From: Escherichia phage chee24
Sequence record: NC_047885.1
Length of the DNA: 64,000 bases
Reading direction: 5' to 3' (one strand)
Part shown: piece after piece, positions 1 through 10,787 of the stretch
Layout: each line of letters begins with the position of its first letter
How positions within the stretch are numbered: position 1 is the first letter of the stretch
Made by a program: the position numbers and the translations under genes
The notes under the pieces: model-generated
What the model saw: only the letters and a program-made list of their open reading frames with translations
Told to the model about the DNA's origin: nothing
The model's database searches: none

Positions 1-16
1 ATTTCAACTTTAATTA

Positions 17-751
17 TTACGCAACTTTTAATTTCTCAATATATTGTTGCGGGCTGCAACTATATTCTGCGCGTTCTTCTTCGGTCATACCTTCCCAACA
101 TAATTGCAGGCGGTCGGCTAGGAACTGATAATCATTATCATCCTCAAGAGATTCATCAATAAAGGTTTCACCTATCAATGTCACGCCGATTGATAGAATA
201 TCGTTAACGGCTTGTGCGTCCAGCGTTTTAAATCCGTATGACGCTGCCGCTGATAGCACGCCTTTATGATCATCAATCATTGTAAAATCAGCGTTCGGAT
301 ATAATTGTTTGAATAGCCCAAAATAGTAACTTTTATAAACTGCGTCTTTGCTGTGGTATATCTCGCTAACTTTATCAGCCTCAAAATATTTGTGTAGTGT
401 ATCGCGGGAAAATACACGGATATTACTATCACCACGACCGCGCAAGCCTTGTTTGCGCAAATAATAATAGTCCGACTTGCTCATCAGTCGAGCGGTGCAA
501 ATAATGTTTAATGTATTTGCGTCATTCATGCACTGGCGCATATATGTAACAAGGGGCAATAAAGTATCTTGCATTATTAAATCATGTTTGCAGGCTTCAT
601 TTTTATACTTATTTAAATCTAAATTGCCCTCGCTATCAAAGCAAGGCGCTACACGATGGAAAGAATTAATGATAGTGCCGTCCAGATCCCAAATCATGAC
701 GCGGGAAATATGCGGGAAATTACGGGTAATATTCATTTTAACTTGATTCAT
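17..751 (-). CDS. dmp: 5'-deoxyribonucleotidase (Dmp-like HAD-family phosphatase)
   Basis: 244 aa ORF; N-terminal HAD motif IWDLDGTI; first gene of a T5-type pre-early block; RBS-like GGAGAA upstream. Confidence 0.7.
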   Translation of the reverse strand: MNQVKMNITRNFPHISRVMIWDLDGTIINSFHRVAPCFDSEGNLDLNKYKNEACKHDLIMQDTLLPLVTYMRQCMNDANTLNIICTARLMSKSDYYYLRKQGLRGRGDSNIRVFSRDTLHKYFEADKVSEIYHSKDAVYKSYYFGLFKQLYPNADFTMIDDHKGVLSAAASYGFKTLDAQAVNDILSIGVTLIGETFIDESLEDDNDYQFLADRLQLCWEGMTEEERAEYSCSPQQYIEKLKVA

Positions 752-831
752 TTTGTTACGTTCTCCATTAAAGGGATTAGATTAATTCAGCATTACCCGC
801 TATTTATAAGCGGGTAATAATAAATTAACTA

Positions 832-1224
832 TTAAAGACCATACGCCAACGCATCAGCAATAAAACTAATATCTTCACCAGATACACCGGAACGAATCCC
901 CGCACAAGTATATACCTTTGCGCTGGTCAATTGATCATCGAGGCAAGCGGGGCAAGGTGCGACTACTGCGAAAGCTAAACCAGATTTTACCGCGTCAATA
1001 ATGATGGTTTCTTGTTTCACCGTATCAACATAAACGCCTGCGGCCTTAATGTAACTACTTGCGCGGCCTTGCGTATAGGCAAAGGTAGTAACCTGCAAAG
1101 CGTCATTGAAATCTAATAGGTCATCAATAACGTGCCCCGCCTCGACGTGGTAACGTTCGCCATTAGAATAAACCAGAACAATTGAGGATTGAGCGCGATC
1201 GAATGGAATATTTTGCTTTTTCAT
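832..1224 (-). CDS. hypothetical protein (130 aa; HxE and PCxxC motifs)
   Basis: ORF co-directional with pre-early block; HVEAGH and PCPAC motifs, spacing atypical for a deaminase. Confidence 0.5.
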   Translation of the reverse strand: MKKQNIPFDRAQSSIVLVYSNGERYHVEAGHVIDDLLDFNDALQVTTFAYTQGRASSYIKAAGVYVDTVKQETIIIDAVKSGLAFAVVAPCPACLDDQLTSAKVYTCAGIRSGVSGEDISFIADALAYGL

Positions 1225-1262
1225 ATTTATAAAACTCCAATTAGTTTAATAAGGGGTTTAAT

Positions 1263-1553
1263 TTACTTGATAATAATTTGCATTTGATACGGCGTTAATT
1301 CACCGTTTACGGGTAAATTATTATCGCTTAGCCACTCATAAAAAGCACCATCATCATCAAAAGGGACAATATCGTTATCACGGGAATCGACGGAAATAAT
1401 ACCATCCGTATTAGTTTTGGCGGCTAGGATAGGCCCGAAGCTGTAAACTTTATCAGATTCCATTTCATCCGGTGAAATGAATACTTTTTCGTCCAATGTT
1501 TTGGGTAATGTAACTTTCATTTTTTGACTCCTATAATAGCGGCTATATTTCAA
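1263..1553 (-). CDS. hypothetical protein (96 aa)
   Basis: ORF in pre-early block, tight spacing with neighbours. Confidence 0.45.
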   Translation of the reverse strand: MKYSRYYRSQKMKVTLPKTLDEKVFISPDEMESDKVYSFGPILAAKTNTDGIISVDSRDNDIVPFDDDGAFYEWLSDNNLPVNGELTPYQMQIIIK

Positions 1554-1573
1554 GCCGCTAGGGTATTAATTAT

Positions 1574-3238
1574 TTACGCGAAAAATTTACCGTTTTTAAA
1601 GTCGATCAAAGTGCGCTGACCGTTTGCATAGGTAATAACATGCGTTTGCGTCCAGCTTGACGCGCCAACGTTGTAACCCATGTCCAGACTACCAGACACG
1701 CCAGCGGTGTATACGCCGCCGTAAATGCTGGCGGTATGAGTGTGCCCCGTGTTTAATTTGCCCAATTTCTTAAACTGTTTCGGATTGCCACGGCTCCCGT
1801 TTATGCCATTGTGACCGTGTACGCCGCATTCAATACCTGCAATCTTGAAAGATTGATCAGTGGTCAGAAAAATGGCGTTAAATTCACAACCTGCAACCTT
1901 GCGCAGCGCATAATCTAGCACGTTGAAAGTATCGTCATGATCACCGATTGCCGCGTAAATTGCAGCATTTAGGCGGTGATATAGTTCCGCGTTTGCTGGA
2001 TCGTCTTTAATGTTAGCATTACGATCATCTAACCAGCGGGATAGCGCCAGATCATGATTAGACTCAACAATGATTGTTTGCGAAAAATCGCGCTCCATTG
2101 ACTCCAGCACGCGACCGGTATCGATAAGATCATCCAGAACTTTATCACGTCCGGCGGCATACTGTTTTGCTAGGAATACACCCGAAGCGCGGTTGTGATG
2201 GTTGCGTGATGTAAAGTCGTGAACGTCATGGATAAACTGATATTTTGGTTTAAGAATATCAAGCAAGCTATTTTCGCCAGCCCATGACGCAACGGCGCAA
2301 GCGTCATCCAATTTTTCGGCGTGTACGTCGCCATATTGTAAACCTAAAACGTGCCCCGTTGTTTCATAACATCCGGCGGGAGTGGCGCAAACATTCAGAT
2401 CATAAAACACCCCGCTTTCGTCCATTGTTTCAAGCTGGCGCACAAAAAACTCACCGTCTTCGTCGAACTCAACAATCAGCGCCCCGAAATTATGCAGTGC
2501 TTCCGCTTTCTGTCCTGCTTTCTGCTGAATGTAGTTTTTAAGCGTTGCCGTTCCGGTTGAATACATACGGCGCACAATTTCACCTTTTAAAGCTGGAACG
2601 CTTTCGGCGGTAATTTTTGCCGCTCCAATTGCCAGACCTTCGATATTTAAAGCCGTTGCAGTTTCTGCAAATCCAGAAAGCGGATAATCTGCGGTTGGCA
2701 AAACATTAATTTCAGCCATGAAAGCAAAGCGGCGGTTATTTAAAAACACGTTTTTGCTGCAAATATATTTATCGAACGCGGAATCATATTTGATTCCGTC
2801 GGCGCCCTCGCCATTTTGAAAACCGTTTTTATTATAAATATACTTGCTAACTAGCAAATCAGCACCAATAAATTGGGCGTATTGTTCAAGCGAGGCTAAA
2901 AAGTTTTTATGAGGGAACGTATTATTCTGAATCGATGTAATAATAAAGCGTTTACCCTGCTTTACTTCCCATTGTTCAACCGTGCTAGAAACAATCCCCG
3001 CCGCTTCTGGGCGCTCATCGTTTTTAATGGCTTTTGCTACTTTCGCCGCTTTCGGTTTCGCTGGTTTATTTGCTTCCAGCCAATCGCAAATTGCGGTGGA
3101 GTGTTTTGTTGTATCATAAACCGCTTTAGAAATATCGTCGCACACTTCCAGCTTAGTAGCGCGCAGGCGTTTACCGTAGAAATTGAAATCAGCGGCCATT
3201 TTCAGGATAACGGTTTGTTTTTCTGCGGAAATAACCAT
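1574..3238 (-). CDS. A1: A1-like pre-early protein with calcineurin-like metallophosphoesterase domain
   Basis: 554 aa; phosphoesterase motifs GDVHAE and GHTHT; size and position match T5 A1. Confidence 0.75.
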   Translation of the reverse strand: MVISAEKQTVILKMAADFNFYGKRLRATKLEVCDDISKAVYDTTKHSTAICDWLEANKPAKPKAAKVAKAIKNDERPEAAGIVSSTVEQWEVKQGKRFIITSIQNNTFPHKNFLASLEQYAQFIGADLLVSKYIYNKNGFQNGEGADGIKYDSAFDKYICSKNVFLNNRRFAFMAEINVLPTADYPLSGFAETATALNIEGLAIGAAKITAESVPALKGEIVRRMYSTGTATLKNYIQQKAGQKAEALHNFGALIVEFDEDGEFFVRQLETMDESGVFYDLNVCATPAGCYETTGHVLGLQYGDVHAEKLDDACAVASWAGENSLLDILKPKYQFIHDVHDFTSRNHHNRASGVFLAKQYAAGRDKVLDDLIDTGRVLESMERDFSQTIIVESNHDLALSRWLDDRNANIKDDPANAELYHRLNAAIYAAIGDHDDTFNVLDYALRKVAGCEFNAIFLTTDQSFKIAGIECGVHGHNGINGSRGNPKQFKKLGKLNTGHTHTASIYGGVYTAGVSGSLDMGYNVGASSWTQTHVITYANGQRTLIDFKNGKFFA

Positions 3239-3336
3239 AATAATAAAACTCCATTAAAGGGATTAAAAAACGTTTGTTATTGGCAAATATTGCCAAATAT
3301 AACGCCGCTCATTTACAGCGTTATAATTTGCAACAT

Positions 3337-3582
3337 TTAACTAATTGGCACTAGGCTAGAACTAACACCACAAACAACGGCAGCAATAAAACAAAGTAAG
3401 CCCAAACGCTTTGCTAATTTAGATTTACGTTTAAAATAATACGAATCTAAATCATTTTGAAAATAAGCGAACAATAGGGAGGCCGCTACAATAAATAAGC
3501 CTAAAATTAGCGATTCAGTGGGAAAGAAAACCATTTTAATAACTCCAGTCAAAGGGAAATTATAGTGGGGAATATTCCCCAC
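3337..3582 (-). CDS. small hydrophobic membrane protein (81 aa)
   Basis: ORF with two hydrophobic segments; in pre-early operon. Confidence 0.45.
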   Translation of the reverse strand: MGNIPHYNFPLTGVIKMVFFPTESLILGLFIVAASLLFAYFQNDLDSYYFKRKSKLAKRLGLLCFIAAVVCGVSSSLVPIS

Positions 3583-3591
3583 TAATTAAAT

Positions 3592-3999
3592 TTATTCGCC
3601 TGCGGCTTGTTTTACTTCATCGGCAACGCCTAACAGTTGCGCCACGGCGTCCAGCGTTTCTAATTTTGCGCTTTCCAGCGATGCCAGATCGTCGGCGTCT
3701 TTGATAATGCCGGAATCAATAGCATGTTTAGCGATAACGCGCACATAGTGAGCCTTACGAATTGAACTGCCGCCGCCAACTTTGCGCGGCTTATCGCTTT
3801 TCTGGTACGCTTTTGCGCTGGTCAATTTTGAGCGAACAGACACGGGAGAAGCCGCACCAACTGTTTTTGCGATCTCTTTCAGGCCGTCGCTGTTGGCGAA
3901 CTCCAAGCCGTTTTCATTGATCAACTGTTGATACATGGTAACAGCCTGCTGGGTGTTTTCTTCATTCCAAGAGAATTTTGCGGTTTTAGCGTTAGTCAT
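3592..3999 (-). CDS. A2: A2-like pre-early protein (135 aa)
   Basis: 135 aa ORF immediately downstream of A1 on same strand; size and position match T5 A2; no catalytic motif seen. Confidence 0.55.
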   Translation of the reverse strand: MTNAKTAKFSWNEENTQQAVTMYQQLINENGLEFANSDGLKEIAKTVGAASPVSVRSKLTSAKAYQKSDKPRKVGGGSSIRKAHYVRVIAKHAIDSGIIKDADDLASLESAKLETLDAVAQLLGVADEVKQAAGE

Positions 4000-4097
4000 G
4001 ATTATAACTCCTATTGATTTAATTTAAGGGATAAGATTAACATAATGTTAATCGTTATATACCCCGAACTACTGGGGTATATAAAGTTAACACTAAA

Positions 4098-4349
4098 TTA
4101 TAAAACAGCTTCCCATTTTTCGTTGCGCTGGGCAACCTTTACAACGTCGCCGGATTTAACCCGAACGCTATAAATAGTTTTCCCGTTGTTACTCCGTTCC
4201 GTTTCAGCGTATACCGCATCAATTACATCAAACGGCATAAGCGCCGCGCCTTTAATGCGTTCGGCCTTTCCGGTTAATTCGTCCGTTTTAGTAACGAAAG
4301 GAATAAAAACGGATTGACCAATTTTTGGCGCATTAGTAACGTTTTTCAT
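4098..4349 (-). CDS. hypothetical protein (83 aa)
   Basis: ORF in pre-early block. Confidence 0.45.
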   Translation of the reverse strand: MKNVTNAPKIGQSVFIPFVTKTDELTGKAERIKGAALMPFDVIDAVYAETERSNNGKTIYSVRVKSGDVVKVAQRNEKWEAVL

Positions 4350-4577
4350 GGTATAAACTCCAGTTTATTCAGTGGATTGTTCCGCATTACCTGCTAGAAA
4401 GTAGCAGGTAATAAGCAACAATCCGCTCGCCATTATAATCAATTTAAAGAACTCCACTCAGGCCGCTATATCCCAGTTAGGGGGCGGGACACATTATGGT
4501 AAGTGCCGACCGTCAAATTTTATCAAGTTATCGCTCTCATCGAACTGGGTACATCTTAAAGCCTATCGGCTAGGGTG

Positions 4578-4781
4578 TCAAACAGTTTTTTGCAGTTTTT
4601 TATGATTTTCTTTCAGGTCAATCATAATATTGCGCCAGATCATTTCCAAACCTTGCTGGCGGCCTTTCTTGTACTGCATGAATCTGAATTTTACGGATTG
4701 TTGAGCTATTGTCAACAGCTTTCTAGTATTGCCATCCAATTTTTTGGCGGGTTTACCAGTGATTAATAAAGTTTGTTTCAT
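4578..4781 (-). CDS. hypothetical basic protein (67 aa)
   Basis: ORF with GGAGGG RBS; start ATG overlaps stop of upstream small ORF (ATGA). Confidence 0.45.
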   Translation of the reverse strand: MKQTLLITGKPAKKLDGNTRKLLTIAQQSVKFRFMQYKKGRQQGLEMIWRNIMIDLKENHKKLQKTV

Positions 4782-4936
4782 TCCACGCCCTCCAGTGCAT
4801 ACAGACCTTTACCATCATTACAGAATACAACCGCTTCTGAATGGTTGGCGTGATATTCGTTTGCCGCTTTTACCCATTGCTCGATCTTTTCGATCGTGTC
4901 ATGGGTTGCTGGATGATCGTTATATATTGTTTGCAT
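4778..4936 (-). CDS. hypothetical small protein (52 aa)
   Basis: Hand-translated ORF (below track cutoff) with AAGGAA RBS; translationally coupled to 4578-4781. Confidence 0.35.
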   Translation of the reverse strand: MQTIYNDHPATHDTIEKIEQWVKAANEYHANHSEAVVFCNDGKGLYALEGVE

Positions 4937-5372
4937 ATCTGCGATTCCTTATAATGAATAAGTTTACCGCCGATAGACTTTAAGATATACCCAATTTTTA
5001 AAGAGCGCGGCGGTAAACTTCCCGCCGTGTAGTTCGTCATTGCCGCCCTACGTGATAAATAATAGGGTATTCCCGAAAATGGCGCAACCTTATTTTTGTA
5101 AAGAAACGTAAAGAAAGCAACACGTTCGGCGCTCACCTAAGTTTAAAGGAAACGGGCGCGCGAATACCATAAAACCAAGCAGATAGGCAAGTAATTTTTT
5201 CATTTATATTTGCCTTGCCCTACTTGACAAAATCTAAAAAGCTCGTGGTAGCGATAAACGGCTTATCCCCTTATGATGGGATGGCTAAAAACTTCATCGC
5301 GTTCTAGGACGTTTTAGGCGCATTCTAGCCTTGTTGATAACTTATCCCCAAAAGCAAAAATGAAATTTTCCT

Positions 5373-5410
5373 AGTTATCCACTTGACTTTTATTTTCCAG
5401 TGGATAACTA
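5373..5410. repeat. inverted repeat containing two facing DnaA-box-like sequences
   Basis: AGTTATCCAC ... GTGGATAACT, perfect 10-bp arms. Confidence 0.6.
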
Positions 5411-5720
5411 CTTATTTTATAAAATTAATTAATTGACTTTTATTTGTTAGTGTGTATCGGAAAGATAGCAGACTAATAATTGTTAGGATTATAATCATGC
5501 TGGTGGATTGTAACAGCCTGAACTATTAGCAGACTATTAATCTCGGAAAATCTCATTAGCCAACTAACTATTTCATATTATATAATATACATATAAATTA
5601 ATGAGAAATAATAATTATAAGAAATCGTAACCGATAGAAATAATAACTACAAAAATAATCACCGTTATAATAATAACGATAAGAAACTATCGGCCTAAGT
5701 GAGAACCACTATCATTTAAG

Positions 5721-5813
5721 TTATTCACAAAGTTATCCACAGCACAAAATGATTTGACACGATAGGCGGCGATATAAGGACTTATCCACAGACTTATCCA
5801 CATGTTATCCTAC
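5721..5813. promoter_or_regulatory. cluster of five DnaA-box-like 9-mers
   Basis: TTATTCACA, TTATCCACA (x3), TTATCCTAC within about 90 bp. Confidence 0.6.
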
Positions 5814-5828
5814 TGTATATTTATACAG
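5813..5828. repeat. 16-bp perfect palindrome CTGTATATTTATACAG (copy 1)
   Basis: Exact palindrome adjacent to DnaA-box cluster; identical copy at 9368-9383. Confidence 0.7.
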
Positions 5829-6094
5829 GGTAAAAAGGTAGTGTTAACAACTGCAATCAATTTTAAGCGGCCTAAAACGCTTTCTAACGAGCAAAACGCT
5901 ATAGGGTAATATTAAAGTAAAGCCTCAACGCGTCGCCCTGGTGACTTCGCCGTGTTTTGCTCTTTACTATACCGCTGCGCGTTTAACATAAAAATAAGCG
6001 TTAGGCAAGGAAAATAAAAAGGTAAAATAATATTTGCCCCTAGAAAGAAAATACCTTTATCATTCACTCACCGATTAACGAGGGAGGCCAACAA

Positions 6095-7087
6095 ATGCGG
6101 CTATATAAACCAGATAACGCAACCGTCTTAAAAGGTGCGTTGCGTAACCTGCTGGATGGTAGCAGAACAACCAGCATTAAACATTTTGTTTTCAATATTG
6201 AAACACTTCATCGTAATTTTCTTGATGATTACGATGCTTATAATATGAATAGTTTTCTACCGTTATATAATCAAGGGGCAACGCTTGTTTTATATAATCA
6301 GGAATCTCACTTGCTTACTAGTCGAGGGCCAGATACTGATTTTATTATAGTGAAAGGCAGTACAGTAAAAGCCTATGATGCGGGGGCGGGCTTAGAAGTT
6401 TTCACGATAGAAAATTATGAGCCTTATGATAAGGATCTTTATGACGTAGAAAATTTTCTCGATTCATTTTGGCGTTATTTATCAATTGGGTGGAATCGAT
6501 CAGATTATCACGGGTATCGTTTTGCGGCTATAATGGCTTTTGATGATAACGGTAATTTTTTGCTACCGTCGGAATTATACCCGTATGTATATAATGATTT
6601 AATAGAGGAGGCTGGTTTTACTTTCTGGAAAGATGAAGATCAGCCTATTGACAACACGGAAAAACATGCTGTAAATTCTAACACTCAAAGCGTTAACACT
6701 CAAATTACTGAAAACAAAGGAAAAAATACCATGACCAAGATCGCTAATATCGTTGCCGCCAATAAGTCTGCTGTTGTAAATGCTGCAAAACTGGAAGCGG
6801 GTAAAATTGCATTAACTCAAATCACGAAAGTAGCGGCTAAAAAAGCGCCGTTTATGATTAAAGGTTATATTGATACGCCGATTGGTCGGGTAGTTATTGC
6901 CAACCTGCTGAGCGTAGCGGTTGACCAGTACGCCCCAGCTAACCAGAAAGCGAAAGCGGTAGCAGGTGCAGCTATGGAAGCGGCTATGTTAGAAATGGTG
7001 CAAAGTTTTAACATCGCTGAAATGATCGATGAAATGGTGAAAGGTATTGATATTTCTACTTTTACCACTAGCACCGAAAGCGAGTAA
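6095..7087 (+). CDS. hypothetical protein (330 aa, Ala/Lys-rich C-terminal region)
   Basis: ORF with GAGGGAGG RBS; first gene of rightward cassette bounded by inverted DnaA-box/palindrome repeats. Confidence 0.6.
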   Translation: MRLYKPDNATVLKGALRNLLDGSRTTSIKHFVFNIETLHRNFLDDYDAYNMNSFLPLYNQGATLVLYNQESHLLTSRGPDTDFIIVKGSTVKAYDAGAGLEVFTIENYEPYDKDLYDVENFLDSFWRYLSIGWNRSDYHGYRFAAIMAFDDNGNFLLPSELYPYVYNDLIEEAGFTFWKDEDQPIDNTEKHAVNSNTQSVNTQITENKGKNTMTKIANIVAANKSAVVNAAKLEAGKIALTQITKVAAKKAPFMIKGYIDTPIGRVVIANLLSVAVDQYAPANQKAKAVAGAAMEAAMLEMVQSFNIAEMIDEMVKGIDISTFTTSTESE

Positions 7088-7151
7088 TAATATTAAGCGG
7101 GGATTGTTACCCCGCTTTACTATTCCCTTGTTAATTAATAGGAGGCTAATT

Positions 7152-7646
7152 ATGCCAGAAGAAAAATATGGCTTCTCACTGGGAGAAGTGAGTACGGCTA
7201 AACATGATATGATTGTTTTAGTCGATTGCCATACCGGTTATTGCGGGGAAGGGAATACTGAGGAATATTTTGTTCCTGCTGGTACGGATCTCGACGCTTT
7301 CGCCCATGAAATGGCTGTTGATAATGCTTCTCGTTTTGGTAGCGATGGTTACGAAGACGAAGAAACGGGCGATTGGTATGAGAATGATAATGTATATGCA
7401 AGCCTTTATCATTATCAATTAAGTAAATCCGGCACATATGTAAACGGCGGTGATCCTATTAATTCCGTCATGAAATTAATTATTAAATATGGCGGCGTCG
7501 AGATAGTCGATAACAAAGCGGTAATATATGCAAACCGATTAAAACAGCTTGTTTATATCCCTGATAGTACCCGATGGGAGGAATATGCTGTTTTGCATGA
7601 TGAATTAAAACGATGTTTCAATATTGAAACCTTACAAGTAGTTTAA
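7152..7646 (+). CDS. hypothetical protein (164 aa)
   Basis: In-frame ATG with GGAGG RBS inside track ORF 7047-7646; followed by hairpin plus T-run terminator. Confidence 0.6.
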   Translation: MPEEKYGFSLGEVSTAKHDMIVLVDCHTGYCGEGNTEEYFVPAGTDLDAFAHEMAVDNASRFGSDGYEDEETGDWYENDNVYASLYHYQLSKSGTYVNGGDPINSVMKLIIKYGGVEIVDNKAVIYANRLKQLVYIPDSTRWEEYAVLHDELKRCFNIETLQVV

Positions 7647-7661
7647 TGTAAAGTTTTGTAA

Positions 7662-7690
7662 AGGCCGCCTCTTATGGTGGCCTTTTTTGT
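7662..7690 (+). terminator. rho-independent terminator
   Basis: Hairpin AGGCCGCC..GGTGGCCT followed by TTTTTT. Confidence 0.65.
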
Positions 7691-7754
7691 TATAATGCCT
7701 TTACACCGTTTAAGGACGGTTGAAAATTTTCCCAAAAAATTTTGGAGGCTTATA

Positions 7755-7985
7755 ATGGTTGCTTATTCTTCTTCTGACGCTCTTTTCACTGGAAAAGGCT
7801 GGGTATCAAATCGCTGGATCATTCAAGAAATGGTGCAAGAATATGGCATTGCTAAAACTTACACTACCATTCAGGCGCTTTATGATAATGATCAAATTGA
7901 TCAGCAAACGGCGGGCTTTTTGCTGGATACCCTAAAAGCGGAACACTGCACCAAAAAACAAGCTGCAAAAATTGTTTTAATGTAA
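7755..7985 (+). CDS. hypothetical protein (76 aa)
   Basis: In-frame ATG with GGAGG RBS inside track ORF 7674-7985. Confidence 0.5.
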   Translation: MVAYSSSDALFTGKGWVSNRWIIQEMVQEYGIAKTYTTIQALYDNDQIDQQTAGFLLDTLKAEHCTKKQAAKIVLM

Positions 7986-8181
7986 TTAATAAAGGGGGAT
8001 ACTATATCCCCCACTAACTAGAGAGAATAAAAATGGTTATTTTTCGAGCTATTCTAGCAGGTATCTTGGGCGCTATTTTATCACTTTTTGCAATAGCTTT
8101 CGGCGTTCACGCGGTTATTATTGGCGCGGGGATTGCCGTTTTTTCTTATCTGCTGGGCTGCATGAATAAAGGAGAATAAAA

Positions 8182-8394
8182 ATGATCCGCAACGTTTCCC
8201 TTGCCCGCTCCAAAGGCTTTAAGCTGGTGGACGTTAACACGTTTGAGCGGGAGGATTGTAAAATCGAATATGTAGCACGCAACAAAAATGCCTTTCGTGT
8301 TACAGAAAAGAAATTTGACAAGCGCGGCAACGTGATCGCTGAAACGGTTAAACACTTTGCCACCTTTTACGCTGCGTTTCGTGGGGTGTTATAA
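8182..8394 (+). CDS. hypothetical protein (70 aa)
   Basis: ORF with AAGGAG RBS. Confidence 0.5.
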   Translation: MIRNVSLARSKGFKLVDVNTFEREDCKIEYVARNKNAFRVTEKKFDKRGNVIAETVKHFATFYAAFRGVL

Positions 8395-8395
8395 A

Positions 8396-8740
8396 ATGGT
8401 TATTTATGAGGGCAATCGTTTTGTTGCTAATTGCCGTCCGGCATTACTAGCAAACTATTTAAATCAGGTTTCACCTGAATATAAAGGCGTCATTAATATT
8501 TACGAGGGTAAGGCGCACTATAAAATTAATGCGGTCGTTGCCCGTGAATTAGCATTTCAATTTTTGACCTTTGCATCTTGTGACGTTCAGGTTATGGGTG
8601 AAGCATTAATTGCAGAAAATGAAGATGATTTTATTAATATTTTCCGCAAGATATGCACCGAGCGCCTGATCATGAAAGGCGCATATATTCAATCCACTGC
8701 GGATAGCATTGAAACAGCGTTTCGAAAGGTGGCGCAATGA
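8396..8740 (+). CDS. hypothetical protein (114 aa)
   Basis: In-frame ATG overlapping upstream stop (coupled); inside track ORF 8357-8740. Confidence 0.5.
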   Translation: MVIYEGNRFVANCRPALLANYLNQVSPEYKGVINIYEGKAHYKINAVVARELAFQFLTFASCDVQVMGEALIAENEDDFINIFRKICTERLIMKGAYIQSTADSIETAFRKVAQ

Positions 8741-8913
8741 AAAAGTTTTTAATAGCTGGTATGTTTCCTTTGTTGCCTTATGTAATTTGCTGGGCTTTAT
8801 ACGCTCATGGTGCTAGTGTTCCCGGTGTGGCCTCGTTTGGTGTATCGGCTGGTTTTCTAACCGGACTATTGGCAAGCGTATATCTGCGCAAATAATTAAT
8901 AACGGGAGTTATT

Positions 8914-9108
8914 ATGAGCAATAAAATTGTTGTAACCAAAATCAGTACAATGGTTGACGTTTTTTATGTGCCCGATACGCCGGAAAACCGGCAAGCGGTC
9001 GAGCGTGGCGAGTATGATAAAGTGATTTATGATCACGATGGTTACTATCAACATTTGGTGGATTCCTACGGGGAGGGGGAAAAAATCACGCATCGACTAC
9101 CAGACTAG
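8914..9108 (+). CDS. hypothetical protein (64 aa)
   Basis: ORF with GGGAG RBS; last gene of rightward cassette. Confidence 0.45.
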   Translation: MSNKIVVTKISTMVDVFYVPDTPENRQAVERGEYDKVIYDHDGYYQHLVDSYGEGEKITHRLPD

Positions 9109-9367
9109 TAATCACGGGGGCGCAACTACCAGGGAGTGCCCCCAATTCTCAAATGAGAATGATTCTCATTTGACCGCGCCCGCGATGGTTAGCCTGCTAA
9201 TGATTAGGGTGTTACGTGTCGCCTTGTGTGATCGTTAGCAGGCTAACTAATTTTTAAGCCTCCTCCAATTTTGCCCTTGTTTTAGTATCCCCATCAAAAT
9301 TAAACGCGTTAGAATGCGATTCAGGACGTTTTAGGCCTATATTAGAATTATTCACTACATAGGAGTA

Positions 9368-9383
9368 CTGTATATTTATACAG
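9368..9383. repeat. 16-bp perfect palindrome CTGTATATTTATACAG (copy 2)
   Basis: Identical to 5813-5828; followed by reverse-orientation DnaA boxes. Confidence 0.7.
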
Positions 9384-9405
9384 TAGAATAACCTGGGGAT
9401 AAGTC

Positions 9406-9475
9406 TGTGGATAACGCCTCAAAATGGCTAGGATTCTGTCAAGTCAAATCGTGCTGTTGATAAGTCTGTGGATAA
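9406..9475. promoter_or_regulatory. two DnaA-box-like sequences in reverse orientation (TGTGGATAA)
   Basis: Each within the motif GATAAGTCTGTGGATAAC, mirroring 5781-5803. Confidence 0.6.
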
Positions 9476-9500
9476 CTTAAATAACAGTGTTTCTCACTTC

Positions 9501-9680
9501 CATTTTTAAATGCGAATCATTATCATTTGCATTTCACTGTCTAACTGATAATCATTTCACTTTTTAAATGAGAATCATTTCACTTTTTGAATAGTTCTCA
9601 TTCCGCTTTTTAAATGAGAATAATTATCATTCGCATTTCACTTTTTAAATGAGATTGATTCTCATTATCATTCGCATTTA
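9501..9680. repeat. AT-rich repeat array (five copies of CACTTTTTAAATGAGAAT-like unit with palindromic AATGAGAATCATT cores)
   Basis: Visible repeated units at roughly 20-40 bp intervals. Confidence 0.6.
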
Positions 9681-9709
9681 GGCGAGCAGGGCAATTGCCC
9701 TGCGCTTTT

Positions 9710-9932
9710 GTGCAAATCCGACATTGCTCCACGGGTGTTACGTGCGGGCGTGTATGTGCGAATCCGACAATTTTTGGTAGTGTGCGAATCCGACCCGAAA
9801 AATTTTTATAGTGTGCAAATCCGACAATGAATTTTCCCAAAAACTCCAGCAATCTCGAACTGCGTTCGAATCCTGTGGAATTAGCTAGAATATGTGCAAA
9901 TCCGACATGTGTTGAGATGTGCGAATCCGACA
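9710..9932. repeat. iteron array: six direct copies of GTGC(A/G)AATCCGAC(A/C)
   Basis: Copies at 9710, 9756, 9782, 9813, 9894, 9919; irregular spacing. Confidence 0.75.
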
Positions 9933-10261
9933 AGATTTTTGTGACTTCGATTGGAGGGTGTGTGATTGTATGGGTTTGAGGAGAAGGTGAGAGAGCGAGA
10001 GAAATTTTGGTACTAGAAGGGTGTGGGCGCAGGATTGGTGCGGAGCACCTGATTTGCGGGGATTTTGGGGAAGATGTAAGATAATTTGGGAAGATTTGAG
10101 ATAGGTGCAGAAAAAGTGAAATTTTATTAGCAAAATGGGGCAAAATAGCTTGACAAGTGAAAATTCCTGTGGCTCTAAAAACTCAGGCAATCATGGGCCT
10201 TCGGCCCGAAATAATGCTGCTATTTTCAGGGGAGTAAAAGTTCCTAAAAACTTAGGCGTTT

Positions 10262-10310
10262 GTGCAAATCCGACCATAAATTTCTAGAAATGCAGTGTGC
10301 AAATCCGACA
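10262..10310. repeat. two further copies of the GTGCAAATCCGAC iteron
   Basis: Copies at 10262 and 10297, each followed by a TTCTAGAAA or TTCTGGAAA palindrome-like motif. Confidence 0.7.
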
Positions 10311-10339
10311 GTAATTTCTGGAAATGTGTTTTCAAAAAA

Positions 10340-10440
10340 TGTCTTCTAGAAATAACCGCCCTCCCTATAACCGCCCTGTATTAACCGCCTAGTATATGTT
10401 CCTAGAAACTTAGGAGAACCGCCCACTAGAAGTGTGATAT
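10340..10440. repeat. AACCGCC short direct repeats (four copies) interleaved with TTCTAGAA-type palindromes
   Basis: ATAACCGCC, ATAACCGCC, TTAACCGCC, GAACCGCC seen within 100 bp. Confidence 0.55.
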
Positions 10441-10787
10441 TTCGTGAGAACTCTGGAGTTTCTAGGAAAGTGTTATGCCATCCTAGCAGATGAGCGACAA
10501 CAGGTGTATCATCTTGAATGTAAATTATGTGGACAAAAGTTTTACCTTTTATTTAAATAAAAGATCCCCCAATCTCGTAAGTCTGCTGCTCTAGGCGTTC
10601 AAGATCTGTATGCTAATCCCGTGAAAACTGCTGCAGAATACATCCTAACGCCAGGGGCGCTGGTGTACTCTTCGAGTTGGGATAGCAATAATCTTGTTGC
10701 CTAGAGCTAAAAACAGAAGTTGTTTTTAATCTATGAGATTATTATAACATGTGCCTTAATGAGTTGTCAAGAAGATTTTGTTAACGT

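What the first reader, a model, noticed from the sequence alone, without database searches (positions are those of the whole stretch)
5370..9480. Inverted DnaA-box/palindrome modules bracket a 3.5-kb opposite-strand gene cassette
Two modules, each a 16-bp perfect palindrome (CTGTATATTTATACAG) abutting DnaA-box-like 9-mers (TTATCCACA), sit in mirror orientation at 5781-5828 and 9368-9414. Together with five more DnaA-like boxes (5373-5813) they flank the only rightward genes in the pre-early region (6095-9108). The arrangement resembles a host-DnaA-titrating or DNA-transfer pause element, or the scar of an inverted-repeat-bounded insertion.
Basis: partly seen in the sequence, partly recalled or inferred. 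Interest (0 to 1): 0.6.

Follow-up and report, generated by a model that had tools for sequence, protein, structure and literature searches.

The report
T5 injection-stop repeats carrying LexA boxes
These are the already-described inverted repeats with DnaA boxes that flank a variable gene cassette in the first-injected end of T5-like phages; the one apparently new point is that their "palindrome" is a near-consensus binding site for the host SOS repressor LexA, conserved across the whole phage family.

Summary
The window is the left 64 kb of T5-like phage pork29 (Tequintavirus chee24). The two mirror modules are real. They are the inner ends of a 132-nt inverted repeat (5697-5828 / 9368-9499), the ortholog of T5's annotated IRC-spacer-IRD and IRD'-spacer-IRC'. 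Those repeats, their eight DnaA boxes and their proposed role in the injection stop signal are already published (Heusterspreute 1987 as cited by Davison; Wang 2005 annotation; Davison 2020). The chee24/pork group was in Davison's comparison, so the finding is already known. Corrections: the 16-mer is not a perfect palindrome, and each arm holds two DnaA-box pairs. Additions from this work: (1) the palindrome (T5 "palindrome D") is a near-consensus LexA SOS box (19/20 right, 17/20 left). These are the only two in about 114 kb scanned, and the element is kept beside DnaA boxes in Klebsiella, Pectobacterium, Proteus, Aeromonas and Vibrio relatives. I found no paper noting this. (2) The cassette varies in content and length (1.5-4.6 kb) and lies fully inverted between the arms in My1-type and one Klebsiella phage. 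The function is untested. The best reading is a landing pad for host DnaA and LexA that controls two-step DNA transfer.

The parts
5697..5828 (.). Left (A1-proximal) arm of the 132-nt inverted repeat; ortholog of T5 IRC-spacer-IRD (T5 6022-6152)
   Evidence: the repeat finder I1; T5 annotation; sequence comparison with T5
5721..5741 (+). Outer DnaA-box pair of the left arm (TTATTCACA aag TTATCCACA)
   Evidence: (D20)
5782..5802 (+). Inner DnaA-box pair of the left arm (TTATCCACA gac TTATCCACA), followed by a weak third box TTATCCTAC at 5806-5814
5811..5830 (.). Left LexA/SOS-box-like 20-mer TACTGTATATTTATACAGGG (17/20 to consensus; heterology index 3.78)
5332..5407 (.). Additional one-mismatch DnaA-like boxes in the upstream non-coding region, including a head-to-head pair at 5375-5383 / 5399-5407 inside a 15-bp inverted repeat
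   Evidence: I18
5869..5879 (.). Inner conserved element GGCCTAAAACG; its inverted partner is at 9327-9337. A CGTTTTAGG-type motif sits at this position relative to the palindrome across genera
6095..9108 (+). Variable pre-early cassette: DUF7566 protein (6095-7087), 164-aa ORF (7152-7646), 76-aa ORF (7755-7985), T5.015-type Ung-dependent nickase homolog (8182-8394), 114-aa ORF (8396-8740), and two unannotated ORFs (8737-8895, 8914-9108)
9188..9247 (.). 17-bp-stem hairpin after the cassette; equivalent of T5 palindrome C / putative terminator
   Evidence: I13; T5 annotation
9327..9337 (.). CGTTTTAGGCC, inverted partner of 5869-5879
9366..9385 (.). Right LexA/SOS-box-like 20-mer TACTGTATATTTATACAGTA (19/20 to consensus; heterology index 0.82); equivalent of T5 'palindrome D'
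9368..9499 (.). Right (stop-proximal) arm of the inverted repeat; ortholog of T5 IRD'-spacer-IRC' (T5 9332-9462)
9394..9414 (-). Inner DnaA-box pair of the right arm (TGGGGATAA gtc TGTGGATAA)
9455..9475 (-). Outer DnaA-box pair of the right arm (TGTTGATAA gtc TGTGGATAA)
   Evidence: (D16)
9491..9680 (+). Adjacent AAATGAGAAT-type direct repeats (T5 DRC/DRE equivalents), part of the candidate injection-stop region
   Evidence: D1, D4, D6, D8

Best explanation
This is the pork29/chee24 copy of the T5-family inverted repeat pair IRC-spacer-IRD / IRD'-spacer-IRC'. These are conserved non-coding modules of the first-step-transfer (pre-early) DNA. Each arm is a composite landing pad for host proteins that are already present when the DNA enters: a near-consensus LexA box at the cassette-side end, then, 8 nt away, two pairs of same-orientation DnaA boxes 61 bp apart.

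The right arm lies just inside the point where DNA transfer halts. It is the better-conserved core. It most likely takes part in controlling the pause and resumption of two-step DNA transfer by assembling a DnaA/LexA nucleoprotein complex on the trailing end of the first-step DNA.

The left arm is a weaker duplicate. With the right arm it brackets a dispensable, variable accessory cassette that has inverted between the arms during evolution.

Shown here: the identity with the T5 element; the sequence matches to both consensus motifs; their genome-wide uniqueness; family-wide conservation; cassette variability and inversion.

Inferred, not shown: that LexA and DnaA actually bind, and that binding causes or modulates the stop.
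For: Identity: the window is 100% identical to MF431732.1 positions 5000-9800. The repeat arms align with those annotated in T5 AY587007. Davison's comparison of 25 T5-like phages describes the 131-bp arms with paired DnaA boxes 3 bp apart and names the chee24/pork group.

LexA box: the published consensus is TACTGTATATATATACAGTA. The right box matches 19/20 and has HI 0.82, better than all 25 E. coli training sites. The left box has HI 3.78. About 0.12 sites with HI<=9 are expected per random 64 kb. No other site with HI<=9 exists in 113,900 bp.

Conservation: in all A1-anchored enterobacterial loci the only HI<=6.5 sites in 13-21 kb are at the arms. Eight distant Demerecviridae loci (A1 32-42% identical; Vibrio, Aeromonas and Proteus hosts) carry 13 sites with HI<=8 against 0.16 expected, all in the cassette-flanking stretch upstream of A2, and 11 of the 13 have DnaA-type boxes within about 110-130 bp. 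blastn matches to Klebsiella and Vibrio phages begin exactly at the TACTGT.

The central AA/TT varies freely between phages and between arms, as expected for a symmetric dimer site.

The stop-proximal box is always the stronger one (HI 0.82-3.6 against 3.78-7.28) in the Tequinta/Epseptima-type loci.

Position: the right arm is 0.2-0.3 kb left of the equivalent of T5's 7.9% nick and shear point. A minor first-step band of about 5.8 kb was reported near T5's left arm.

Dispensability: the T5 mutant deleted from hegG through 017 is viable with small plaques.
Against: No binding data exist for LexA or DnaA on this DNA, and no mutational test of the stop signal has been reported.

The LexA boxes do not overlap a convincing promoter (and inspection), so they are not classical operators.

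A protein bound on the cytoplasmic side does not obviously stop DNA that is being pushed in from the capsid.

From my own knowledge, T5 plates on recA strains such as DH5-alpha, so LexA cleavage cannot be required for second-step transfer.

All hosts of the family share the same LexA motif, so covariation between host and motif could not be tested.

The heterology-index matrix was built from E. coli sites recalled from memory. Only its consensus was checked against a paper.
Confidence: 0.6

Rival explanations
1. The palindrome is recognised by phage proteins (A2, a dimeric DNA-binding protein, and/or A1), for example as the release or cleavage site that lets second-step transfer resume, as in Davison's restriction-site model, which lists PalD among candidate sites. 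On this view the resemblance to a LexA box is incidental or reflects competition with LexA.
For: A1 and A2 are essential for second-step transfer and are conserved in every phage that has the module. Davison names PalD as a possible cleavage site. The palindrome conserves more than the minimal LexA requirement (CTGTAT...ATACAG).
Against: A 19/20 match to the LexA consensus including the flanking TA is very unlikely by chance. The half-site stays invariant while A2 diverges to 35-41% identity, which suits a slowly evolving host protein better. The A2 model (pLDDT 84.5) is all-helical with no significant structural match, and LexA appears only at rank 22 with E=3.7. Transfer stops without phage protein synthesis (established knowledge), so some pre-existing factor must read the region.
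Confidence: 0.2
2. The LexA boxes are transcriptional operators or roadblocks. They would make cassette expression, or an antisense or read-through transcript at the cassette ends, respond to the host SOS state, independently of DNA transfer.
For: The boxes sit at both cassette borders in all genera. A weak leftward promoter-like site (9374-9347) overlaps the right box. The cassette encodes toxic, DNA-directed functions such as the Ung-dependent nickase homolog.
Against: The left box lies about 200 bp upstream of the promoter-like sequence before the first cassette gene, and the equivalent T5 promoter (T5P4) is likewise about 180-260 bp away. The promoter-like site at the right box has no counterpart at the left box. 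The stronger, better conserved box is the one downstream of the cassette. The cassette can be inverted without any change in the boxes.
Confidence: 0.15
3. The arms are only a structural by-product: a scar of an inverted-repeat-bounded insertion, or a substrate for inversion. The motifs would be chance, or would serve only to titrate DnaA.
For: The cassette is variable, dispensable and found in both orientations between the arms. Some T5-like phages reportedly lack the left arm.
Against: There is no transposase or recombinase domain and no target-site duplication. Motif enrichment is extreme and specific across the genome. The order palindrome / 8 nt / DnaA pair is kept across genera whose flanks no longer align. 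There are too few boxes to titrate DnaA.
Confidence: 0.04

Closest known systems
T5 inverted repeats IRC-spacer-IRD (6022-6152) and IRD'-spacer-IRC' (9332-9462) with 'palindrome D', in Repeat Regions 2 and 3 of the left terminal repeat (AY587007 annotation; Heusterspreute 1987 and Wang 2005 as cited by Davison; Davison 2020 bioRxiv 10.1101/866236)
   Same: The same element: position in the terminal repeat, about 131-132-nt arms, four DnaA-box pairs with 3-bp gaps and 61-bp pair spacing, the palindrome at the inner ends, a variable opposite-strand cassette between the arms, and DRC/DRE repeats and the 7.9% nick to the right.
   Different: Only sequence details differ (central TT against AA in the palindrome; T5 has an HNH gene inserted to the left). 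Reading palindrome D as a LexA box, and the cassette inversion in My1-type and Klebsiella phages, are not in that literature as far as I could search.
LexA (SOS) boxes of gamma-proteobacteria, consensus TACTGTATATATATACAGTA (for example the sulA, recN and umuDC operators)
   Same: 19/20 and 17/20 matches to the consensus. The heterology index is within, or better than, the range of functional E. coli boxes.
   Different: There is no evident overlap with a promoter or transcription start. The boxes sit on a strictly virulent phage, at a fixed 8 nt from DnaA-box arrays. Binding is untested.
Chromosomal DnaA-box clusters (oriC, datA, DARS)
   Same: Clusters of consensus R-type boxes in the same orientation with short fixed gaps.
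   Different: No replication role is expected: T5 origins map mid-genome, and replication genes arrive only with the second step. No DNA-unwinding element was identified. The boxes are too few for titration.
Invertible DNA segments bounded by inverted repeats (Mu G segment/Gin, Salmonella hin)
   Same: A 1.5-4.6 kb segment between inverted repeats occurs in both orientations among relatives.
   Different: There is no recombinase gene. The arms are only 78% identical. In the window the central dinucleotide of the two palindromes has the same polarity (both TT on the + strand). There is no evidence of switching within a phage population.

Membership tests
T5-family IRC-spacer-IRD / IRD'-spacer-IRC' repeats (candidate injection stop signal) | About 131-bp inverted repeat pair inside the terminal repeat, flanking the variable cassette | tested here: met
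   132-nt arms at 5697-5828 / 9368-9499 within the left terminal repeat 1-9968. They align with the arms annotated in T5.
T5-family IRC-spacer-IRD / IRD'-spacer-IRC' repeats (candidate injection stop signal) | Eight DnaA or DnaA* boxes in four pairs separated by 3 bp, at fixed positions in the arms | tested here: met
   Pairs at 5721/5733, 5782/5794, 9394/9406 and 9455/9467, each with a 3-bp gap and 61-bp pair spacing in both arms.
T5-family IRC-spacer-IRD / IRD'-spacer-IRC' repeats (candidate injection stop signal) | Right arm immediately left of the DRC/DRE repeats and the roughly 7.9% stop/nick region | tested here: met
   Repeat families D1, D4 and D6 at 9491-9680 follow the arm; the order matches the T5 annotation.
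T5-family IRC-spacer-IRD / IRD'-spacer-IRC' repeats (candidate injection stop signal) | Actually halts DNA transfer (cis-acting stop) | not testable with these tools
   No experimental test is reported even for T5.
LexA SOS box | CTGT-N8-ACAG core and a close match to the 20-bp consensus | tested here: met
   19/20 and 17/20 matches; HI 0.82 and 3.78; the only two such sites in about 114 kb scanned.
LexA SOS box | Overlaps or adjoins the promoter or transcription start of a regulated gene | tested here: inconclusive
   Only a weak promoter-like match overlaps the right box. None overlaps the left box. The cassette promoter region is about 200 bp away.
LexA SOS box | Bound by LexA; derepressed on RecA-mediated cleavage | not testable with these tools
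   Needs EMSA, footprinting or ChIP.
DnaA-box cluster (oriC/datA-like) | Multiple 9-mers matching TTWTNCACA, clustered | tested here: met
   6 strict boxes in 670 bp against 0.08 expected. All 5 exact TTATCCACA of the genome are here.
DnaA-box cluster (oriC/datA-like) | Functions in replication initiation or DnaA titration | not tested
   Considered unlikely on published grounds; not testable here.
Site-specific invertible segment (Gin/Hin type) | Adjacent or internal serine or tyrosine recombinase gene | tested here: not met
   No recombinase domain in any cassette or neighbouring ORF.
Site-specific invertible segment (Gin/Hin type) | Crossover-site cores in inverted polarity | tested here: not met
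   Both palindromes read TT at the centre on the + strand in the window. The polarity varies among relatives.
Transposon or IS-type insertion bounded by inverted repeats | Transposase gene and target-site duplication at the outer repeat ends | tested here: not met
   No transposase. No shared direct k-mer longer than 4 nt at the outer flanks.

The most novel reading that the evidence does not exclude
Host LexA, acting together with DnaA on the composite palindrome/DnaA-box module, is a host factor of the T5 injection stop or its release. This is the missing cis/trans pair of a question open for more than 50 years. Unlike dnaA, lexA can be deleted in a sulA background, so the model can be tested directly. 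A weaker version is that virulent Demerecviridae use LexA occupancy of their first-entered DNA to sense the SOS state of the cell.
Probability: 0.15. Interest if true: 0.8.

Novelty: already known. Interest (0 to 1): 0.38.

Why it matters
How T5 stops DNA entry at about 8% and later resumes is a classic unsolved problem. As of 2023-2026 papers still state that the role of these repeats has not been tested. The finding itself re-discovers published anatomy and a published hypothesis. What this analysis adds is a second, non-essential host protein (LexA) as a candidate reader of the element, supported by family-wide conservation. It also gives a clear ranking of the two arms: the right arm is the core, and the left arm is weaker and apparently dispensable. 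Together with current T5 genome-engineering methods, this makes the stop-signal model cheaply testable.

Tried and rejected
1. Host/motif covariation. A1-bearing phages of hosts outside the gamma-proteobacteria (Rhizobium RHph_N1_10; 26 metagenomic A1 loci) lack the T5-type pre-early layout, have no DnaA-box clusters and show no enrichment of alternative LexA motifs. The test was uninformative.

2. A2 as a LexA mimic. A2 has no match in the local Pfam search and no PDB sequence hit. The AF2 model (pLDDT 84.5) gave no Foldseek hit below E=0.8.

3. Oriented recombination core. The central AA/TT polarity is inconsistent among phages and arms, and there is no recombinase.

4. Hairpin or terminator. 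The palindrome forms only an 8-bp AT-rich stem of about -7 kcal/mol with no T-run.

5. Known RNA families. None in 4800-10500.

6. Transposon scar. No target-site duplication and no transposase.

7. Classical LexA operator. The promoter scan found no convincing promoter overlapped by both boxes.

8. 'SOS induction releases the stop'. Rejected on prior knowledge that T5 grows on recA hosts. This was not tested here.

9. Davison 2015 (Bacteriophage 5:e1086500) could not be retrieved. Heusterspreute 1987 and Wang 2005 are not in the held library, so I cannot exclude that one of them mentions LexA.


Full report
**What the window is.** Positions 5000-9800 are 100% identical, at the same coordinates, to Bacteriophage T5-like pork29 (MF431732.1) and its near-identical siblings, species Tequintavirus chee24. 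The record annotates a left terminal repeat at 1-9968. It holds leftward dmp, A1 and A2 genes and a block of rightward hypothetical genes at 6095-8740. The finding therefore lies in the pre-early, first-step-transfer DNA of a T5-like phage.

**Checking the observation.** CTGTATATTTATACAG occurs exactly at 5813-5828 and 9368-9383, with 0.08 matches expected by chance. It is not a perfect palindrome. The reverse strand matches with two mismatches, so the structure is CTGTATA-TT-TATACAG.

- Exact TTATCCACA boxes lie at 5733, 5782 and 5794 (+) and at 9406 and 9467 (-). They are the only five in 113,900 bp of the genome.
- Six boxes fitting TTWTNCACA fall in 670 bp of module sequence, against 0.08 expected.
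- The two modules are the inner ends of a 132-nt inverted repeat, 5697-5828 / 9368-9499, 78% complementary.
- Each arm has two same-orientation box pairs with 3-bp gaps, 61 bp apart.
- Similarity continues inward to GGCCTAAAACG (5869-5879 / 9327-9337).
- The ORFs between the arms (6095-9108) are the only rightward genes of the terminal repeat.

The two corrections are the 'perfect' palindrome and the missing second box pair on the right.

**It is already known.** The T5 record AY587007 annotates inverted repeats C and D (6022-6060, 6112-6152), D' and C' (9332-9372, 9424-9462) and 'palindrome D' (9330-9349) at the homologous places. Davison's preprint (10.1101/866236) reports several relevant points:
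- Heusterspreute et al. 1987 had already noted DnaA boxes there.
[quoted passage not shown] - The comparison names chee24 as representative of the pork27, saus47N, saus111K and poul124 group.
- It proposes that membrane-bound DnaA holds these boxes to stop injection.

Later papers repeat this as an untested idea.

**What the palindrome is.** With its flanks it reads TACTGTATATTTATACAGTA on the right and TACTGTATATTTATACAGGG on the left. The published LexA consensus is TACTGTATATATATACAGTA (PMC8072944), so the matches are 19/20 and 17/20.

The right box scores 0.82, better than every training site, and the left box scores 3.78. About 0.12 sites with HI<=9 are expected per random 64 kb. No other site with HI<=9 occurs in 1-113,900 of the genome.

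T5's palindrome D is TACTGTATAAATATACAGTA. Davison's text contains neither 'LexA' nor 'SOS'. Four full-text searches found no paper linking T5 or T5-like phages to a LexA box. Older subscription papers could not be read.

**Conservation.** I anchored on A1 rather than on the motifs and fetched 64 viral-contig loci.
- In loci with A1 at least 66% identical (L005-L042), the only sites with HI<=6.5 in 13-21 kb are at the two arms beside DnaA boxes. L024 is the exception, because that contig ends before the region.
- In the Tequinta/Epseptima-type loci (A1 92-97% identical), the stop-proximal box is always the stronger one (HI 0.82-3.6). The A1-proximal box is weaker (3.78-7.28) and has a broken half-site (CCTTG, TCTTG) in several phages.
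- The central AA/TT differs between phages and between arms. This suits a symmetric dimer site and argues against an oriented crossover core.
- blastn of the right arm finds 541 phage records. The alignments to Klebsiella and Vibrio phages start exactly at the TACTGT.
- In eight distant Demerecviridae loci (A1 32-42% identical) there are 13 sites with HI<=8, against 0.16 expected. The loci are Vibrio PG07, phi 3, ABurr, KIT04, D254 and 70E37-5, Aeromonas AhSzw-1 and Proteus phage 1. All 13 sites lie in the cassette-flanking stretch upstream of A2, and 11 have DnaA-type boxes within about 110-130 bp.
- The order 'CGTTTTAGG-type element / about 25-30 nt / palindrome / about 8 nt / DnaA pair / spacer / DnaA box(es)' recurs in the enterobacterial, Pectobacterium, Klebsiella, Vibrio PG07 and Proteus modules. 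The other Vibrio modules and the Aeromonas modules keep the palindrome and nearby DnaA boxes but with a longer gap. Some genera repeat a degenerate palindrome directly against the second DnaA box.

Such invariance of CTGTAT...ATACAG, while A2 falls to 35-41% identity, fits a host-protein site better than a phage-protein site.

**The cassette.** It encodes a DUF7566 protein, a homolog of the T5.015 Ung-dependent nickase (phrog_4227) and small proteins of unknown function.
- Its content is patchy among relatives. The distance between the two boxes ranges from about 1.5 to 4.6 kb.
- In all 34 loci with A1 at least 92% identical that hold cassette genes, the cassette is on the strand opposite to A1.
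- In the My1-type loci (L038-L040) the homologous genes are on the A1 strand in reversed order, still between the two boxes. In Klebsiella phage Boggle, DUF7566, the one homolog detected, is likewise on the A1 strand and sits at the opposite end of the cassette. This indicates at least one inversion across the arms.
- No recombinase or transposase domain is present, and there is no target-site duplication.
- A 2026 preprint reports a viable, small-plaque T5 mutant deleted from hegG through 017. By gene order that deletion should include the left arm, but the boundaries are not stated, so this is an inference.
- Davison also notes that some T5-like phages lack the left arm.

The right arm is therefore the core, and the left arm plus the cassette are accessory.

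**How it most likely works.** The shown facts are these: a composite of near-consensus sites for two host proteins, unique in the genome, conserved across the family, with the stronger copy 0.2-0.3 kb inside the expected 7.9-8% stop and nick region.

Established knowledge is that the first-step stop does not need phage protein synthesis. A reader of the signal must therefore pre-exist in the cell or in the virion.

The inference is that DnaA and LexA occupy the arm as it enters and form a nucleoprotein complex that takes part in pausing or in licensing resumption by A1/A2. A reported minor first-step fragment of about 5.8 kb near T5's left arm fits both arms acting as pause sites.

The weaknesses are:
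- there are no binding data;
- a cytoplasmic anchor does not obviously resist capsid pressure;
- the boxes are not at an evident promoter;
- T5 grows on recA hosts (my own knowledge), so LexA cleavage cannot be the release trigger.

**Rivals.**
- The palindrome is read by A2 or A1 (Davison's cleavage model). A2's predicted fold is all-helical with no significant structural neighbour, and LexA appears only at E=3.7. This gives no support for the rival and does not refute it.
- The boxes are SOS-responsive operators or roadblocks for cassette or antisense transcription.
- The arms are a mere recombination scar, or serve DnaA titration. This is largely excluded by the conservation and by the small number of boxes.

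**Verdict.** The feature is real and is correctly located apart from one descriptive error. It is a published element with a published hypothesis. The LexA-box identity of 'palindrome D', its conservation across the family and the cassette inversion are modest additions. They make the old injection-stop question easier to test.

Noticed in passing
window 8737-8895 and 8914-9108 (+): Two small ORFs (52 and 64 aa) are not annotated in MF431732.1, but they match PHROG families strongly (phrog_35622 E=9e-39; phrog_6973 E=3e-42) and are conserved in relatives. They are probably real cassette genes.
   Followed up: partly
window 9610-10143 (-): The annotated CDS P29_0014 (177 aa) has no PHROG or Pfam match. 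It lies over the DRC/DRD repeat arrays and the terminal-repeat boundary (9968), a region treated as untranslated in T5. It is probably a spurious gene call.
   Followed up: partly
window 9707-10317: Seven to nine copies of TGTGC(A/G)AATCCGAC (the T5 'DRD' equivalent) straddle the end of the terminal repeat. Their function is unknown.
   Followed up: no
window 6190-6205 and 7614-7629: A 16-bp exact inverted repeat is built around the 14-bp perfect palindrome TTTCAATATTGAAA. It occurs once inside the DUF7566 gene and once at the end of the 164-aa ORF.
   Followed up: no
window 5754-5759 (+) and 9435-9440 (-): A perfect TTGACA sits in the spacer of each arm, pointing inward toward the cassette. 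It is also present in T5, Klebsiella and My1-type arms as GTCAAG/TTGACA. No properly spaced -10 element follows it.
   Followed up: partly
L038-L040 (My1-type) and L004 (Klebsiella phage Boggle_ER46): The cassette homologs (DUF7566, the 164-aa ORF and the 64-aa ORF in the My1-type loci; DUF7566 alone detected in Boggle) are inverted as a block relative to Tequintavirus, while the flanking palindrome/DnaA arms keep their orientation.
   Followed up: yes
L069 (Vibrio phi 3), L072 (ABurr), L075 (KIT04), L039 (My1): A second, degenerate copy of the palindrome (for example ATGTATAAATATACAGT) lies inside the spacer, directly against the next DnaA box. The palindrome-plus-DnaA-box unit is therefore itself repeated in some genera.
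   Followed up: partly
window 9300-9365 and the homologous inner flanks in all genera: A conserved AGAATAWT...CTAC stretch and a CGTTTTAGG-type motif lie at a fixed distance inside the palindrome, even in Vibrio and Aeromonas phages. This may be a further protein-binding site or promoter element.
   Followed up: no
window 3592-3999 (-), A2 protein: The large protein database has a precomputed Pfam family (PF26822) for all A2 homologs, but the local Pfam copy reports no family for A2. The AF2 model is confidently all-helical with no structural neighbour in the PDB.
   Followed up: partly
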